IMG/VR virus record: IMGVR_UViG_2721755728_000011
Strand: one strand, 5' to 3'
DNA: 64,000 nucleotides
Source: a virus
Lineage: Duplodnaviria > Heunggongvirae > Uroviricota > Caudoviricetes
The position numbers were made by a program. The first letter of the stretch is position 1. Each line of letters opens with the position of its first letter. Shown here piece after piece: positions 1 to 6,000 of the stretch.

Positions 1-3000
1 ATGGCGCTCATAAATCTGGTATACTTACCTTTACACATTGGGGCTGATTCTGGATTCGACGGGATTTGCGAAACCCAAGGTGCATGCCGAGGGGCGGTTG
101 GCCTCGTAAAAAGCCGCAAAAAATAGTCGCAAACGACGAAAACTACGCTTTAGCAGCTTAATAACCTGCTTAGAGCCCTCTCTCCCTAGCCTCCGCTCTT
201 AGGACGGGGATCAAGAGAGGTCAAACCCAAAAGAGATCGCGTGGAAGCCCTGCCTGGGGTTGAAGCGTTAAAACTTAATCAGGCTAGTTTGTTAGTGGCG
301 TGTCCGTCCGCAGCTGGCAAGCGAATGTAAAGACTGACTAAGCATGTAGTACCGAGGATGTAGGAATTTCGGACGCGGGTTCAACTCCCGCCAGCTCCAC
401 CAATCATGATTGGACGGTGTAAGGACAACACCAATAAAAACAGGAAGTTAGCAGTCTCAGCAGGACACCGACCAGACGGTGAGGAGACAAAAAAGGATAC
501 GCAAAGGAGCCGCGGCTCCCGAGTGACAAAAAAGCCCGCTTATGCGGGCTTTTTTGTTTTTTTCCCTCAAGCTCACTGACGTGTTCTTGCCTCAACTACT
601 TTCTGGTATATAGCGATAGCTTCATCAACCAAAGCTAATGGATAGCAAGAATTTATATTCAATCCGGAGGGGCACTTAATTCTTTCTGCTCCACGTTCAC
701 TACGCAATTTTTCACACCATTGCCAAAGTTCCTCAACTGAATAGGTATCCAAACCTAACTCCATCAATCGTTGAGGAACACTTCTGAACTGAGACAAATC
801 TCTTAAACTTTCTAACGAGTTAACTTTTAGTTCAACTTGGTTTACTCTACTTTCTAACTCTTCACGTTTTTCTATTTCCATTACCAATGCTTGAACCGTC
901 TGCTGCAGACTGTTAGCAAAAGCACTCAGTTCTGAACGTTCTTGTTTAGGTGGCGGAGGATATACACCAAATTCACGAATAGACGGAAGGACCTGATGAA
1001 AAAGCCAGCGTTGGAATTTTTTCCCCGCAGCAGTAGTATCCTGAGCAAGTACTCTATATAGACCTGGTTCAGTAAGAAATACCTCAGAGATAGTTTCACC
1101 ATCCACGACAAGAGAAACATTCCTAAACTCATCTGGATCTAAAGTTTTTATTACCGCTCTTATTACAGTGAGCAAGCTTTGAGAAGTCTTTCCATCCAGT
1201 TTTCTGTTCTCAGCAGAAAGCGTTCTTAGCACATCTGAAAGTGAAACAAAAATCTGCCCTTTTTCATTCATGCTACGGATATAATTTTCTCCACACTCTC
1301 CTTCGTAGCATAATTGTAACAAATTCTTTTGCACGCCATCCCCTCCTTTTTTTATGGATTATACATCCTATAAACATGTTGTCACCGAAAGGGAAAAGCA
1401 TAAACCCAATTTATGTTCCACAAGATGTTCAAAAATCAAACAACCATATAGCTGAGGAGCACAAAAGAGCAAAAGTTTACCAACCCCATATATCCATACA
1501 GCACATAAAATTGACACTACATGTGGTATTTTTTAAGTTACGCCTTGCACCATTTCATGATTTTATGTAGATTGTCATCACACGCTGAGATTAAAAAATT
1601 CTACAATTTTTGTTGATCTTGAGTTTGGTTTTTAGTATAAGTGAGCATGGATTGTAGGAGGCGCAACATGGTAACTAGCTTTGGTAAGACTCTCAGAAAA
1701 ATGAGAATAGACCGGGGTATGGTGCTCAAAAATATGGCTGATCTGTTAGGCGTTAGTTCGGCTTACTTATCCGCCATTGAATTAGGCAAAAGAGCTATAC
1801 CGGACTCATTAGTAAATACGATTGCAACAACTTTTGAGCTTAGCGGACAAGACATCATCAATCTCAAGAAACAGGCAGAGATTTCTCAACCGTCCATTAA
1901 GGTTGATATGTCGGATGCAAATGAGCAGAACAAAGAACTAATGCTTGTTTTTGCTCGTAAATTTAAGGACCTGAGTCCAGAGCAACTCGATAAGCTTAAT
2001 AAAATGTTAAAGGACTGAATAATGATTGCGAAACGAGAACTTGGCCATCGCGTTTCACCTCTCAGCACCAGCATGATTAAATCATACGCTCATCGTCTGA
2101 GAGACGTTCTTCAGATATCAAATCACACATATCTGAGACTGGATGTATTACTAGAAGGTCTTATGGCCTCAGAAAGCATTGAGCTAGAAATTGTTGAAGA
2201 TCATGAACTGCCCAAACGCTATGCAGTGACTTATCCAGATAAGAACAAAATTGTTTTACAGCGATCTGTTTACGATGCAGTGTGCAATGGTGAGAACCAT
2301 GCGAGATTCACTGTTGCGCATGAACTTGGTCATTTAGTCATGCATCGCAATCAAAGTATCTATGCACGTAATAAGACTAGTGGAGGGCATAAAATCTATG
2401 AAGACAGCGAATGGCAAGCAGATGTTTTTGCAAGCCACTTCTTAATTGACTCAAGACTAGTTTTGCCCACAATGACTGTTGAAGATATAAGCAAAACATT
2501 TGGTGTCAGTCAACAAGCGGCTGAAACCTGGATGAGAAAAAATGCAAAAAGATAACGAAAAAGCCAGCGAACCGCTGTCGCTGGCTTCTCCTATCGTAAG
2601 CAAATACGAAAAACTTGGCGGTTGTGAGTATACGCTTACCTTAGGTTTTGTCAACAGCGAAACTTTACAGGTAACACGATATGACCATTGAAAAAGCTGT
2701 ATCTGAGGAATACATCACAATTTACCGTCCTTTTATTACGGTCAAAGGTAAACGGATCTTTGCTCGTCAAAAAGGCTTGGCAGCCTTTCCTATCAAAATT
2801 CCTGCCTCTAAGTATCGAGGATAATCTTTGCTAATCTTAGGCCCTTTTCTAGGGCCTTTTATTACACTTCTGTTACGCGCACCACAGATAGAGTTTCAGC
2901 TAAAACTTTTGTTCATACCTAGGAGTCTGCTGACGAGTGGTTTGTTCACTAATAAACACGTAAAAACGGTAACGGCTGGACATCATTTAATATTCGCACT

Positions 3001-6000
3001 ATTGGAAGTTCACCAGCCAGCCACAGCACGTTCTTGCATACAACGTGCCTGCGGTTTTTGAGACCGGTCCGATCATCAAACGAAACATAAAATTAGCTCA
3101 CACTATGAGGAAAAGTATCTTTTTTTACTATGTAAATTCAAAGAATTAGCCTCATTTACCCGATAGTTTTCTCAACACTACTGGTTGTGAGCCCTTGCAA
3201 TGTTCATTAATATACGTCTCACAAATAATTCATAGATATTGCAAAATGGATATTACTGAGTTTCCTTCTGGAGTAATTGAACACCTTGGCTGGTATGTAT
3301 ACCGATTGATTGATCCGAGGGACGGAAGCACCTTCTATGTAGGGAAAGGCAAAGGTAACCGCGTATTTGCCCATATGCGCGGTGAAGTGGCAGCGACTGA
3401 TGATGACGAGTTACTGAGCAACAAGCTAAAGCAAATTAGAGAAATAAGGTTAGCAGGACTTGAGGTTATCCATGTCATCCATCGACACGGAATGACTGAT
3501 GAAAAGACGGCGTACGAAGTTGAAGCAGCACTTATTGATGCCTACCCTGGGTTAACGAATATCATGAATGGTGCTGGCAGCAATGAATTCGGCGCCGCGC
3601 ATGTCAAAGAGTTGATAGCAACATATCAACCCGAAACCATAACATTTCATCATAAAGCATTAATGATTTCCGTTAACAGAAGTGCAAAGGATTCAGAGCT
3701 TTATGATGCGGTTCGATTTAGCTGGCGCATTAATGTCTCTCGCGCCAGCCAAGCAGAAGTCATTCTTGCTACTGTAAGGGGGATCGTTCGAGGGGTTTTC
3801 ATTGCTGATAAATGGCTCAAATCAACACGTGAAAATTTCCCTACGATGAAATACTGGGACGAGGATCCGGACTTTGAGGCAACACAAAGTTCTCGCTATG
3901 GTTTTGAAGGTCGAGAAGCCCCACCTGAAATAGCAAATCTTTATCTTGGAAAAAAAATACCAGATGAATTAAGAAAAAAAGGAGCTATGTCCCCGGTCCG
4001 TTACTCACCTAATTTTTGAGTCTTTAAGTGATAAGCATAAACCGCAGCACGTCATGCATACGTCGTGTCTGCGGTTTTTCTTTTTTGCTTACACGGTGTC
4101 TGGTTCTTCTGGCCACTCAATATCAGGTGCAGTTGATGTATCAACACGGTTCAGCAACACCCGATACTTCTTCCAGGCTTCCAGCAACGAGGTTTCTTCC
4201 TCCGTTGCAATTTCCAGATCTGCAGCATCCTGAAGCGGCGCAATATGCTCACTGGCTACCTGCATCAGGTTGTTTTTTGTTTCTTCCGCCTCCCGGATCC
4301 GGAACAGTTTTTCTGCTTCCGTATCCTTCACCCAGGCTGTGCCGTTCCACTTCTGAAACTCCCCTTCCGGCGATAACCAGGTAACATTTTCCGGTAACGG
4401 ACCGAGTTCAGAAATAAATAACGCGTTGCCGGAAGCCACGTCATAAACCGTTTTACCCCGATGATCTTCAACGAGATGCCACGATGACTCATCACTGTTG
4501 AAAACAGCCACGAAGCCAGCCGGAATATCTGGCGGTGCAATATCGGTACTGTTTGCTGGCAGACCTGTATGAGGCGGAATATATGCATCACCTTCACCAA
4601 TAAATTCATTAGTTCCGGCCAGCAGATTATAAATTTTTATGGTCCGTGGTTGTTCACTCATTCTGAATGCCATTATGCAAGCCTCACAATATAGTTAAAT
4701 GCGATGTTTTTGACGGTGTTTTCCGCGTTACCAGCAGCGTTAACGGTGATGGTGTGTCCATGTGAACCAATCGCAACGGAGTGCGTATGAGCACCAATAC
4801 CGACAGTATGCGCGTGTGCACCTGCAGATGCTGCTGTGCCGGACAGTGAATGGCTATGATTACCATCTGTACTGGTATTCGCTAACCACCCCGTAGACAT
4901 ACCTACTGAGCCTTGTACACCCCAGGTATTTTGACCTGAGCTTGTATAACCATATTGATAAGTATCTTTAAAAACACTGGGGTTAAATCGACGGCCATCT
5001 CTATGGCTGTGATTACCAGCTGCATTCGTGCTGCCACTTAAACTATGGGTATGCGCACCAGTGTTATTCGTGGATTTAGTGCCGTAATCAAACGACGATG
5101 TGGTTTTCGTCCCCAAATCCGTACTGGATGCGCTGGCGCTGTGGGTGTGCGATTTAATGCCGTCCTGTTCCTGAGACAATACGGCCCGACCACTGGCGGG
5201 CTTGCCCTTAATCATCCAGCCACGCATATCAGGGATCACGCCTGACGGATAAGCCGCTGCAAGTTTCGGGTAAGCAGATTTGTCAAAAGTCTGCCCCTGC
5301 ATCAGGGCATAACCAGACGGAACGGTATCTGATGGCCACGGGATTGGTGCGCCAACTGGGTAGCTTTCTGGTGGAAGATTTTTCGAGGTATAAACTTCTG
5401 CCCAGCCTTCCTCAAAACCATAGCCATCTCTTGAGGAACGGTAGAACAGACCTCCATTTCTGTAATGCGCCTTCATCTGCAGGGTCCGGCAACTTCCGAC
5501 TCCGGTATAGAAGTTAACCAGAATATAGCTGTCGCCAGAGCGGGTGACATTGTAAGCGCCTGATTCGGCATTCCATGGAACGCCACCATCCGCATCGGCA
5601 TATGTATCCGTTGCCCTTCTGGCAAAAGCAGCCACATGCGCGGCGGTTAAAGTAATATCTCTGGAACCATCAAACTCAACACCAGAAACCCGTCTTGGCG
5701 TTTGCAGCTTTGTTGCTGTTAATGCATTACCGTTCAGACTTGCGGACAGTTTGGTTCCAATAACCAGTTCGCCGGTTGCGTTATCAATAGCAAACGGTCT
5801 TAATGTATTCCAGCCACCATAAACATCACCTTGATTGGTAAGCAGCAGGTAAGTTTTAGCGCCATCATTACGCCATAATGCACCATACTCCCCACCTATC
5901 ATTCGAATCTGATTACCACCACGCGCTACAATTTCGTCTGTGGCAAAAAGTTTTTTGCACGACAAGTTATCGTTAACGATTAACGAATGAGACTCATAAA

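What the first reader, a model, noticed from the sequence alone, without database searches (positions are those of the whole stretch)
403..4087. AT-rich accessory locus between ssrA and the tail-fiber end of prophage 1: candidate regulated defence or anti-defence module
Between the intact tmRNA gene and tfa there is no integrase. Instead the ~3.6 kb holds a Bro-N antirepressor-like gene, a divergent HTH-plus-ImmA/IrrE metallopeptidase operon, a 47-codon ORF and a GIY-YIG nuclease-domain protein with an unrecognised C-terminal domain, each separated by its own hairpin terminator. The tail-distal end of lambdoid prophages is a known hotspot for defence cargo, and HTH/ImmA-like pairs (ImmR/ImmA, CapH/CapP) are known damage-responsive switches for mobile-element and defence genes. 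This exact combination is not one I recognise as a described system.
Basis: partly seen in the sequence, partly recalled or inferred. Interest (0 to 1): 0.75.

Follow-up and report, generated by a model that had tools for sequence, protein, structure and literature searches.

The report
Mosaic defence cargo at prophage end
The 3.7 kb between the tmRNA gene and the tail-fibre genes of this E. coli prophage is not one new system but a patchwork of separately mobile cassettes: an already characterised restriction nuclease against T4-like phages (CMoRE/PD-T4-3), a decayed dinI gene, an antirepressor-like gene, and a widespread repressor-protease-small-peptide module that I could not find described anywhere.

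Summary
The locus is not a single system. The GIY-YIG protein (3246-4019) is PD-T4-3/CMoRE. It matches the PADLOC model over its full length at 2.4e-140 and is about 98% identical to crystal structure 9U75. CMoRE is a published single-gene type IV restriction endonuclease that cuts 5hmC/glucosyl-5hmC DNA of T-even phages from its own promoter. Its 1-kb cassette occurs in 853 of 5426 complete E. coli genomes. The Bro-N/HTH/ImmA block occurs in only 36. In strain G749 the same ssrA-to-tail-fibre slot holds a type II restriction-modification system in place of that block. A dinI remnant and terminators lie between the two units. The HTH-ImmA pair autoregulates through a conserved palindromic operator. 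In diverse phages it is followed by the conserved 47-aa basic peptide, which is under purifying selection. Between ImmA and the peptide lies a conserved near-consensus antisense promoter plus terminator, a candidate ~70-nt sRNA. I found no description of this four-part module. Bro-N has its own promoter and occurs independently of the pair. Verdict: a real defence-cargo hotspot whose nuclease is already known, with no evidence that HTH/ImmA regulates it, and a moderately novel side-finding.

The parts
40..402 (+). ssrA (tmRNA) gene. Its last ~39 nt (364-402) correspond to the phage-borne ssrA 3' fragment, and the att core (364-383) is 18/20 identical to the attP annotated in phage LLS.
525..558 (.). 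Perfect 14-bp-arm hairpin flanked by an A-run and a T-run: a bidirectional terminator for ssrA and the Bro-N gene. It marks the left boundary (574/575) of the exchangeable cassette relative to strain G749.
573..1334 (-). Bro-N / Ant-like protein, 253 aa: Bro-N domain, long helix 135-175, small conserved C-terminal domain. Function unknown.
1358..1385 (-). Predicted Bro-N promoter GTGACA-16-TATAAT (11/12). The -10 is invariant in E. coli, LLS and Salmonella. No HTH operator overlaps it.
1600..1641 (+). Palindromic operator TCTACAATTTTTGTTGA (1600-1616) overlapping the -35 (TTGATC 1613-1618) of the predicted HTH promoter (-10 TATAAG 1636-1641). The palindrome is conserved, and perfect, in Serratia and Providencia.
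1668..2018 (+). XRE-family HTH repressor, 116 aa, with a conserved C-terminal helical tail (FARKFKDLSPEQLDKLNKMLKD).
2022..2555 (+). ImmA/IrrE-type M78 zinc metallopeptidase, 177 aa: HExxH plus the E of YEDSEWQAD; no GAF domain and no cysteine-switch loop.
2548..2654 (-). Candidate antisense sRNA unit: promoter TTGACA(2654-2649)-16-TATACT(2632-2627), predicted start ~2620, terminator hairpin 2591-2557 plus T-run ending ~2548. It is convergent with immA and overlaps its stop codon. The PGAP 49-codon ORF 2542-2691 on the + strand covers this region and is probably spurious.
2681..2824 (+). Conserved 47-aa basic peptide (pI 10.3, net charge +7, predicted 4-stranded sheet). Motif: YRPfITvKGKRIyA.Q.GLkAFpi.
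2839..2857 (+). Terminator-like hairpin ending the HTH-ImmA-peptide unit.
2868..3059 (+). dinI pseudogene remnant: the last ~30 codons with an in-frame stop and a deletion, plus the dinI 3' UTR and terminator. The ~100-nt UTR recurs at cassette boundaries in other genomes.
3062..4040 (+). CMoRE/PD-T4-3 cassette with its own upstream region. CDS 3246-4019, 257 aa, with Y17/Y19/Y31 (the GIYxY-YIG motif) and the acidic DDDE loop present. Flanked by direct repeats 3032-3059 and 4052-4079.
4089..4673 (-). Tail fibre assembly gene (context; the end of the prophage structural genes).

Best explanation
The locus is the att-proximal cargo slot of an ssrA-integrating temperate phage. It holds at least three independently mobile units plus one gene remnant, assembled by recombination at conserved terminator/linker sequences.

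Unit 1, CMoRE/PD-T4-3 (shown in the literature for a ~98% identical protein). This is a single-gene type IV restriction endonuclease. Its C-terminal domain binds 5hmC or glucosyl-5hmC DNA and its GIY-YIG domain degrades it, which protects the lysogen from T-even phages. It is expressed from its own promoter.

Unit 2, an ImmR/ImmA-type proteolytic switch (inferred). The 116-aa HTH repressor binds a palindrome over its own -35 and autorepresses the HTH-immA-peptide operon. A signal, plausibly DNA damage or infection, lets the ImmA peptidase cleave the repressor. This raises expression of the only conserved downstream product, a 47-aa basic beta-sheet peptide. A constitutive antisense sRNA of about 70 nt, made from a near-consensus promoter between immA and the peptide gene, is predicted to damp basal read-through. 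The peptide's activity (toxin/abortive-infection effector, or regulator) is unknown.

Unit 3, a Bro-N/Ant-like protein. It is transcribed from its own strong promoter as the terminal prophage gene. Its function is unknown.

The dinI fragment is debris from cassette insertion.
For: Identity of CMoRE: PADLOC PD-T4-3 2.4e-140 over 1-256/256; PDB 9U75 3.7e-172 with 4 differences in 257 residues; published mechanism and single-gene activity from the native promoter.

Independence of the units:
- The CMoRE cassette is in 853/5426 E. coli genomes, the Bro-N-to-peptide block in 36, and the whole locus in 31.
- In G749 the flanks are 98% identical, but window 575-3035 is replaced by a type II RM system.
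- Ten other sampled CMoRE contexts carry AraC, an S1 peptidase, retron Ec67, a lipase and other genes on that side.
- The Bro-N-to-peptide block occurs without CMoRE at a prfC-site prophage, in phage LLS beside attP, and in Salmonella.
- Bro-N homologues occur without HTH-ImmA.
- HTH-ImmA occurs without Bro-N.

Switch module:
- The HTH lies directly upstream of ImmA in 57/59 IMG/VR loci.
- The peptide is found in 23/59 loci, always on the same strand, 126-256 nt after ImmA. It is present in lineages down to 27-46% ImmA identity.
- Synonymous versus nonsynonymous codon differences are 18:4, 20:3 and 17:7.
- The operator palindrome is conserved.
- An antisense promoter scoring >=9/12 is found in 17/21 spacers, against 3/21 on the sense strand. 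Each is followed by a hairpin plus T-run at the immA stop. The predicted RNA folds at -26.8 kcal/mol, z = -3.8.

Cassette borders coincide with dinI-3'UTR/terminator repeats.
Against: - Within E. coli, 31 of 36 genomes carrying the HTH-ImmA block also carry CMoRE beside it. These copies are >=99% identical, so they are not independent events.
- A second, distant HTH-ImmA pair (32% ImmA identity) lies next to the same dinI-remnant-CMoRE unit in viral contig L059, in the opposite orientation. Some functional affinity between such pairs and CMoRE therefore cannot be excluded.
- A weak operator-like site (2 mismatches) lies at 3172-3188, upstream of CMoRE.
- The NILS69 study speculated that PD-T4-3 may be repressed in its native host.
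- No expression, cleavage, toxicity or sRNA data exist for Unit 2. The sRNA is predicted only from promoter and terminator conservation. The signal that activates this GAF-less ImmA is unknown.
Confidence: 0.8

Rival explanations
1. One integrated, damage-responsive defence system in which HTH/ImmA (CapH/CapP-like) control expression of the GIY-YIG nuclease, and perhaps Bro-N.
For: PADLOC capH 6e-11 and capP 5e-15. The units are adjacent and co-oriented in 31 genomes. A second HTH-ImmA subfamily lies next to CMoRE in L059. A weak operator-like site lies at 3172-3188.
Against: Genome counts are 853 versus 36. CMoRE is active alone from its native promoter. A terminator at 2839-2857 and a dinI remnant with its own terminator lie between the units. 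The site at 3172-3188 belongs to the CMoRE cassette, which is present in >800 genomes lacking this HTH. The orientation relative to HTH-ImmA is reversed in L059. ImmA lacks the GAF domain that CapP uses to sense ssDNA.
Confidence: 0.07
2. The HTH-ImmA-peptide unit is a split Rosmer-like toxin-antitoxin / abortive-infection defence module. The 47-aa peptide is the toxin, HTH plus peptidase act as the antitoxin/sensor, and the antisense sRNA is an additional safety catch.
For: Both HTH and ImmA hit RmrA models, the fused HTH-peptidase antitoxin of RosmerTA (best 4e-11), and weakly hit the PADLOC candidate PDC-M69A/B. The peptide is the only conserved downstream partner. The cassette occupies the same slot as an RM system and a retron in sister prophages. 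Predictions that COG2856-Xre forms three-component TA-like systems date from Makarova 2009. RosmerTA is described.
Against: No toxicity data. The peptide is not hydrophobic and matches no known toxin, Pfam, PADLOC or PDB fold. The peptide was detected in only 23/59 loci that carry related pairs. In some elements (L083, next to int) the pair may instead be the element's main repressor system.
Confidence: 0.3
3. Bro-N plus HTH-ImmA form a prophage induction or anti-repression switch, as in ImmR/ImmA of ICEBs1 or the Ant systems of P22 and Gifsy. Cleavage of the HTH derepresses the divergent Bro-N antirepressor, which inactivates the main repressor of this or a competing prophage.
For: PHROG anti-repressor Ant hits. 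The divergent arrangement is conserved in E. coli, Salmonella and LLS. LLS has a separate cI/Cro/cII region, so this would be an auxiliary input. Xre-Bro pairs are noted in Makarova 2009.
Against: The only good operator lies ~215 bp from the Bro-N promoter, which is near-consensus and has no conserved operator. The full-length Bro-N family accompanies HTH-ImmA only in the E. coli-type loci and occurs alone in Yersinia, Pantoea and Methylovulum. No LexA box is present in the locus.
Confidence: 0.15
4. The region outside CMoRE is decaying junk with no current function.
For: A dinI pseudogene is present. IS3-family insertions occur in the block in several genomes. The prophage itself is rearranged.
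Against: All four ORFs are intact. The block is >=99% conserved in 34 genomes of diverse hosts. Strong purifying selection acts on the peptide. The active-site motifs of ImmA are invariant. The block is carried by a plaque-forming phage, LLS.
Confidence: 0.05

Closest known systems
CMoRE / PD-T4-3 (Vassallo et al. 2022 selection; Liu et al. Nat Commun 2026, PMC12923530; PDB 9U75, 9U7U)
   Same: ORF 3246-4019 is this protein: a full-length PADLOC match, ~98% identity to the O157:H7 crystal-structure protein, and the same accession (WP_000355484.1) as in O157:H7 strains. The GIYxY-YIG tyrosines and the acidic autoinhibitory loop are present.
   Different: Nothing of substance. Only the neighbouring cassettes differ between genomes.
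ImmR/ImmA of Bacillus ICEBs1 and phage phi105 (COG2856-Xre pairs)
   Same: A small XRE repressor is followed in the same operon by a ~170-aa single-domain M78 peptidase. It sits on a temperate mobile element beside its att site, and autoregulation is predicted.
   Different: Here it is not the element's master repressor (LLS has a separate cI/Cro). The conserved output is a 47-aa peptide rather than int/xis. There is an antisense sRNA candidate. Cleavage and signal are untested.
CapH/CapP regulators of CBASS and other immune operons (Lau 2022; Calloji 2026, PMC13228613)
   Same: An HTH repressor plus an M78 peptidase; best PDB hits are 7T5T and 7T5U; PADLOC capH/capP hits.
   Different: ImmA here has 177 aa and no GAF domain and no cysteine-switch loop. 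No conserved adjacent immune operon. CMoRE is not dependent on it.
RosmerTA (RmrT/RmrA; Millman 2022; Ernits 2023)
   Same: The same HTH and Zn-peptidase domains as the RmrA antitoxin, with a variable or unknown partner gene. Phage-borne and found in defence hotspots.
   Different: HTH and peptidase are separate genes. The partner is a 47-aa basic peptide of an undescribed family. Toxicity and defence are untested.
tisB/istR-1 (damage-inducible type I toxin-antitoxin) and P22 immI ant/sar
   Same: A small ORF under a damage-type repressor, with a constitutive small RNA transcribed in the opposite direction just upstream of it. sar is likewise a short antisense RNA inside a phage accessory regulatory operon.
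   Different: The peptide is hydrophilic and basic, not a membrane toxin. The sRNA overlaps the immA 3' end and the spacer, not the peptide's ribosome-binding site. All of this is predicted only.
Bro-N / Ant-type phage antirepressors (and KilA-N-type BstA abortive-infection proteins)
   Same: An N-terminal Bro-N DNA-binding domain. PHROG Ant families match residues ~59-190. A prophage-encoded accessory gene.
   Different: The C-terminal domain matches no Pfam or PDB entry. No cognate repressor is known. No PADLOC hit. It is conserved as the terminal att-proximal gene in several genera.

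Membership tests
CMoRE / PD-T4-3 | Full-length sequence homology to the validated protein (GIY-YIG N-domain plus modification-sensing C-domain) | tested here: met
   PADLOC PDLC04031 2.4e-140, 1-256/256. 9U75 3.7e-172 over 1-257 with 4 substitutions.
CMoRE / PD-T4-3 | GIYxY-YIG motif (Y17, Y19, Y31) and a run of four acidic residues forming the autoinhibitory loop | tested here: met
   The sequence [19 protein letters not shown] places Y at positions 17, 19 and 31, and DDDE lies at 51-54. 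Features as defined in PMC12923530.
CMoRE / PD-T4-3 | Single-gene system with its own promoter, independent of neighbours | tested here: met
   The 979-bp cassette is conserved in 821-853 genomes with varying neighbours. The literature shows single-gene activity.
CMoRE / PD-T4-3 | Restriction of T-even phages by cleavage of 5hmC/5ghmC DNA | not testable with these tools
   Shown for the O157:H7, APEC O1 and NILS69 alleles in the literature, not for this exact strain.
CapH/CapP | CapP architecture: M78 peptidase + central HTH + C-terminal GAF domain forming the ssDNA groove | tested here: not met
   The protein has 177 aa. The PADLOC capP match covers only profile positions 31-146 of 242, and the PDB 7T5T match covers only residues 86-143. 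Homologues are all 165-195 aa. Domain definition.
CapH/CapP | Cysteine-switch loop after HExxH (present in many but not all CapP) | tested here: not met
   No cysteine lies between H104 and E127 in any of 18 aligned homologues.
CapH/CapP | Encoded next to, and regulating, an immune operon | tested here: not met
   Downstream genes differ in every lineage, and only the 47-aa peptide is conserved. CMoRE is independent.
ImmR/ImmA (COG2856-Xre) | XRE HTH gene immediately upstream of a ~170-aa M78 peptidase with an intact HExxH...E site, on a mobile element | tested here: met
   (57/59 loci)
ImmR/ImmA (COG2856-Xre) | Repressor autoregulates and is cleaved by the peptidase on a signal | tested here: inconclusive
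   A conserved palindrome overlapping the -35 of the HTH promoter supports autoregulation. Cleavage is not testable here.
ImmR/ImmA (COG2856-Xre) | Controls excision or induction genes of its element | tested here: inconclusive
   No int/xis is adjacent in the prophage, and LLS has a separate cI/Cro. In L083 the pair sits beside int.
RosmerTA | RmrA antitoxin = HTH fused to Zn-peptidase in one ~360-400-aa protein | tested here: not met
   Two separate genes. RmrA profile hits are partial: HTH to positions 7-77, ImmA to positions 187-262.
RosmerTA | Adjacent toxin neutralised by the antitoxin; anti-phage activity | not testable with these tools
   There is only a conserved 47-aa partner of unknown activity.
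Type I toxin-antitoxin | Small hydrophobic membrane toxin | tested here: not met
   The peptide has GRAVY -0.13, pI 10.3, 10 K/R, and a predicted beta-sheet.
Type I toxin-antitoxin | Antisense RNA to the toxin mRNA | tested here: inconclusive
   Conserved antisense promoter plus terminator in the spacer. No RNA data and no Rfam family.
Bro-N/Ant antirepressor | Bro-N domain | tested here: met
   PF02498 31.7 bits, above the 25.6 cut-off. PHROG Ant families.
Bro-N/Ant antirepressor | Binds and inactivates a phage repressor; expression is switched on at induction | not testable with these tools
   Near-consensus promoter without a recognisable operator or LexA box.

The most novel reading that the evidence does not exclude
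The HTH-ImmA-antisense sRNA-47-aa peptide unit (window 1600-2860) is an undescribed four-part phage module, found from Enterobacterales to low-GC and high-GC phage contigs. In this reading a proteolytic repressor switch and a constitutive antisense RNA jointly gate a small basic beta-sheet peptide. The peptide would act as a toxin/abortive-infection effector, or as a trans-acting cofactor or sensor for the GAF-less peptidase. That would make it a new split, RNA-guarded variant of Rosmer/ImmRA-type systems, sitting in the same prophage slot as RM systems and retrons.
Probability: 0.3. Interest if true: 0.6.

Novelty: new variant of a known kind. Interest (0 to 1): 0.35.

Why it matters
The headline claim does not hold. 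The nuclease is CMoRE/PD-T4-3, already solved structurally and mechanistically, so that part is ordinary annotation. It also shows that PGAP's name, 'LEM-3-like GIY-YIG domain-containing protein', hides a known defence gene present in about 16% of complete E. coli genomes.

Three results are useful. First, there is a clean natural example of cassette swapping in the ssrA-to-tail-fibre slot: an RM system exchanges with Bro-N/HTH-ImmA-peptide, retron Ec67 appears elsewhere, and CMoRE stays constant. The swaps occur at dinI-terminator linker repeats. Second, the 47-codon ORF is a real, widely conserved gene that annotation pipelines mostly miss (it is unannotated in phage LLS). It is tied to a specific HTH-ImmA pair and a candidate antisense sRNA. 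Third, this pair lacks the GAF ssDNA sensor of CapP. If the module proves to be a toxin or defence switch, it would extend the Rosmer/ImmRA family and give a tractable E. coli model, with a plaque-forming carrier phage (LLS).

Tried and rejected
- PADLOC, Pfam and NCBIfam gave nothing for the 47-aa peptide, the 49-codon ORF, or the Bro-N C-terminal domain.
- The Rfam E-value scan found only tmRNA, IS009 (inside tfa) and terminator-driven noise around 490-630. It found no family for the candidate sRNA.
- A LexA-box search found no site within 403-4087, so direct SOS control was rejected.
- An operator search across the window found only one perfect site (1600-1616). The 2-mismatch site upstream of CMoRE was rejected as an evolved operator because it belongs to the CMoRE cassette found in >800 genomes without this HTH.
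- The 49-codon ORF (2542-2691), annotated by PGAP, was rejected as a gene. Its frame breaks in LLS and Serratia, and the conserved nucleotides are the hairpin and the antisense promoter.
- I considered that the locus might be a separate satellite or island inserted before the prophage. This was rejected because phage LLS carries the same block next to its own attP.
- The word-index homologue search for the peptide returned only 5 close hits. The exhaustive HMMER search was needed to see the family: 29 clusters.
- tblastn of the peptide against 50,697 deposited phages found only LLS and one weak Microcystis phage hit.

Full report
OBSERVATION. The window is 100% identical to the E. coli strain C7 chromosome (NZ_CP010240.1) over all 64 kb. 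ARAGORN and Rfam place ssrA at 40-402.
- a Bro-N protein (573-1334, minus strand);
- a divergent XRE-HTH (1668-2018) and an ImmA/IrrE M78 peptidase (2022-2555);
- a 47-codon ORF (2681-2824);
- a GIY-YIG protein (3246-4019).

GC content is 0.36-0.44, against about 0.5 or more on either side. Terminator-like hairpins lie at 525-558, 2839-2857, 3032-3059 and 4052-4079. Three things were missed. A truncated dinI pseudogene with its 3' UTR lies at 2868-3057. The hairpin at 2557-2591 is a terminator only for the minus strand. A near-consensus minus-strand promoter lies at 2654-2627.

THE NUCLEASE IS KNOWN. The GIY-YIG protein matches the PADLOC model for PD-T4-3 end to end (E = 2.4e-140). It differs at 4 of 257 residues from the E. 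coli O157:H7 protein crystallised as 9U75. [quoted passage not shown] Its C-terminal domain senses 5hmC or glucosyl-5hmC. Its GIYxY-YIG domain cuts the DNA. An acidic loop prevents self-cleavage (PMC12923530). The defining tyrosines (Y17, Y19, Y31) and the DDDE loop are present here. CMoRE works as a single gene under its native promoter in BL21. It also works in K-12 and in its native host NILS69, against T-even phages. The 'unrecognised C-terminal domain' and 'not a described system' therefore no longer hold for this gene.

IT IS NOT ONE SYSTEM. The 979-bp CMoRE cassette (3062-4040) is present in 853 of 5426 complete E. coli genomes. The Bro-N-to-peptide block (560-2830) is present in 36. 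The whole locus is present in 31, all >=99% identical.

In 11 sampled CMoRE contexts beyond the window's own arrangement, the tail side is constant (tfa or pinE). The other side varies: an AraC regulator, an S1 peptidase, a retron Ec67 reverse transcriptase, a type II RM system, a lipase, chromosomal genes, or a different HTH-ImmA pair.

The cleanest comparison is strain G749. It has the same ssrA-integrated lambdoid prophage, with flanks 98% identical to window 32-574 and 3036-5000. Window 575-3035 is replaced there by a restriction enzyme and a cytosine methyltransferase.

Conversely, the Bro-N-to-peptide block occurs without CMoRE in three settings: in a prophage at prfC, in plaque-forming phage LLS directly beside attP, and at the end of P2-like prophages in Salmonella.

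Cassette borders coincide with copies of the dinI 3' UTR/terminator: window 2951-3059, the repeat 3032-3059 / 4052-4079, and flanking copies in MS1657 and ET979. This points to homologous recombination at these linkers as the shuffling mechanism (inference).

NO INTEGRASE. In LLS the order is xis-int-gp31-attP-BroN-HTH-ImmA. After integration the integrase therefore ends up at the opposite prophage end. In this window the prophage is additionally broken. Two truncated DUF968 genes face each other at about 34.4-35.3 kb, and two truncated tape-measure genes face each other at about 51.3-54.0 kb. The int-proximal part lies elsewhere.

THE HTH-ImmA UNIT. The 116-aa HTH, including its C-terminal helical tail, lies immediately upstream of the ImmA relative in 57 of 59 IMG/VR loci retrieved with an ImmA profile. 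HExxH and the YEDSEWQAD glutamate are invariant.

ImmA has 177 aa, and its homologues have 165-195 aa. It has no GAF domain and no cysteine-switch loop. These are the features through which CapP senses ssDNA (PMC13228613). It is therefore ImmA-like rather than a CapP family member, despite PADLOC capP/capH hits.

A palindrome, TCTACAATTTTTGTTGA (1600-1616), overlaps the -35 of the predicted HTH promoter. It is conserved, as a perfect palindrome, in Serratia and Providencia. Autorepression is the simplest reading (inference).

Downstream genes differ in every lineage, with one exception. A ~45-aa basic peptide starts 126-256 nt after ImmA on the same strand in 23 of 59 viral loci, and also in E. 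coli, LLS, Salmonella, Serratia, Providencia and Rheinheimera. Codon differences are overwhelmingly synonymous: 18:4, 20:3, 17:7. An exhaustive HMMER search finds 29 clusters, nearly all stand-alone proteins of 42-82 aa. AlphaFold predicts a small four-stranded sheet, with core pLDDT above 90. The peptide matches no Pfam, PADLOC or PDB entry. It is unannotated in LLS.

The spacer between immA and the peptide carries a minus-strand sigma-70 promoter. It scores 11/12 here and 12/12 in Rheinheimera. It scores >=9/12 in 17 of 21 spacers, against 3 of 21 on the sense strand. It is followed by a hairpin plus T-run at the immA stop codon. The stem shows compensatory changes between E. coli (GCCAGCG/CGCTGGC) and Providencia (ACCAACA/TGTTGGT). 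The predicted ~72-nt RNA folds at -26.8 kcal/mol, z = -3.8, and is not in Rfam 15. The PGAP 49-codon ORF over this spacer loses its frame in LLS and Serratia, so it is probably not a gene.

MECHANISM OF THAT UNIT. All steps are inferred. The HTH represses its own operon. An unknown signal lets ImmA cleave it. Read-through then raises the peptide level, while the constitutive antisense RNA sets a threshold.

What the peptide does is open. Split homology to the Rosmer antitoxin RmrA and positional equivalence with RM and retron cassettes favour a toxin or abortive-infection role. My estimate for that is about 0.3. It could instead be a regulator or a cofactor of the GAF-less peptidase.

BRO-N. 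The protein has a Bro-N domain, a 40-residue helix and a small conserved C-terminal domain. It matches PHROG Ant families. Its promoter (GTGACA-16-TATAAT, 1385-1358) is conserved and lacks the HTH operator and any LexA box.

Homologues of 54-71% identity are the terminal prophage gene in Yersinia and Pantoea without HTH-ImmA. A 39% homologue sits with an AAA_21 ATPase between glyQ and glyS in Methylovulum. Among the viral loci, the full-length family accompanies HTH-ImmA only in the E. coli type. Control of Bro-N by HTH-ImmA is therefore not supported. Its function remains unknown.

CAVEATS. The E. coli co-occurrence of the block with CMoRE (31 of 36) is high, but these copies are essentially one sequence. 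A second, distant HTH-ImmA pair lies beside the same dinI-remnant-CMoRE unit in contig L059, in the opposite orientation. I read this as repeated capture of such pairs by the hotspot, but a functional affinity cannot be excluded. The sRNA, the operator, the cleavage and the peptide function are all predictions.

VERDICT. This is a genuine defence-cargo hotspot. Its one validated defence gene is already known, and the proposed regulatory linkage is not supported. The repressor-protease-sRNA-peptide unit is a moderately novel variant of ImmR/ImmA- or Rosmer-type modules and is worth a bench test.

Noticed in passing
window 34464-35263 and 51327-53964: Two head-to-head junctions of truncated paralogous genes: DUF968/DUF968 and tape-measure/tape-measure. 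The window is therefore a chain of three partial lambdoid prophage segments joined by inversions. These are either real recombination between resident prophages or an assembly artefact of strain C7. No integrase is annotated anywhere in the 64 kb.
   Followed up: partly
window 14112-15706: A P22 immI-like set (phage antirepressor Ant plus two Arc-family repressors, divergent) is inserted among the tail genes between the C40 peptidase and minor tail protein L.
   Followed up: no
window 4132-4300 (-): An Rfam IS009 sRNA match (185 bits, gathering score 117) lies inside the tail-fibre assembly gene, just outside the finding.
   Followed up: no
window 32389-32404: The only perfect CTGT-N8-ACAG (LexA-box-like) palindrome in the window, CTGTTTATTTTTACAG, lies at the 5' end of the prophage DNA methyltransferase gene (31362-32414, minus strand).
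   Followed up: no
window 2951-3059 (also L005 4621-4825, L002 7882-7979, L008 744-850, L059 4949-5055): A ~100-nt dinI 3' UTR/terminator sequence recurs at the edges of different cargo cassettes in several genomes. It looks like a linker at which cassettes are exchanged.
   Followed up: partly
L113 606-3282 (E. coli G749), L111 1137-2972 (JX21CE8): In sister prophages the position next to CMoRE holds a type II restriction-modification pair (directly after ssrA) or a retron Ec67 reverse transcriptase. This shows that the slot collects defence systems.
   Followed up: partly
L059 2154-4507: A distant HTH-ImmA pair (32% ImmA identity, no peptide detected) sits next to the same dinI-remnant-CMoRE unit but in the opposite orientation, followed by an att-region-like sequence. 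This is a second, independent juxtaposition of such a pair with CMoRE.
   Followed up: partly
L020 about 5355-5370: In a Serratia lambdoid prophage, the gene divergent from HTH-ImmA is a 63-aa ORF preceded by a perfect LexA box (CTGTATATAAACACAG). It occupies the position that Bro-N holds in E. coli.
   Followed up: no
L012 6001-8339: In Methylovulum a 39%-identical Bro-N homologue, an AAA_21 ATPase and a 165-aa gene are inserted between glyQ and glyS. This is a small island reminiscent of defence loci.
   Followed up: no
L019 9503-12294: In one Salmonella genome the P2-like prophage end carrying the Bro-N/HTH-ImmA/peptide block lies directly next to hin-fljB-fljA (the flagellar phase-variation locus).
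   Followed up: no
E. coli genomes LZSFT34, ET490, ET670, EC02 (hits H10, H24, H25, H77): IS3-family elements (ISEc52, IS1203) are inserted within the Bro-N-to-peptide block in four genomes. The insertion points were not mapped.
   Followed up: no
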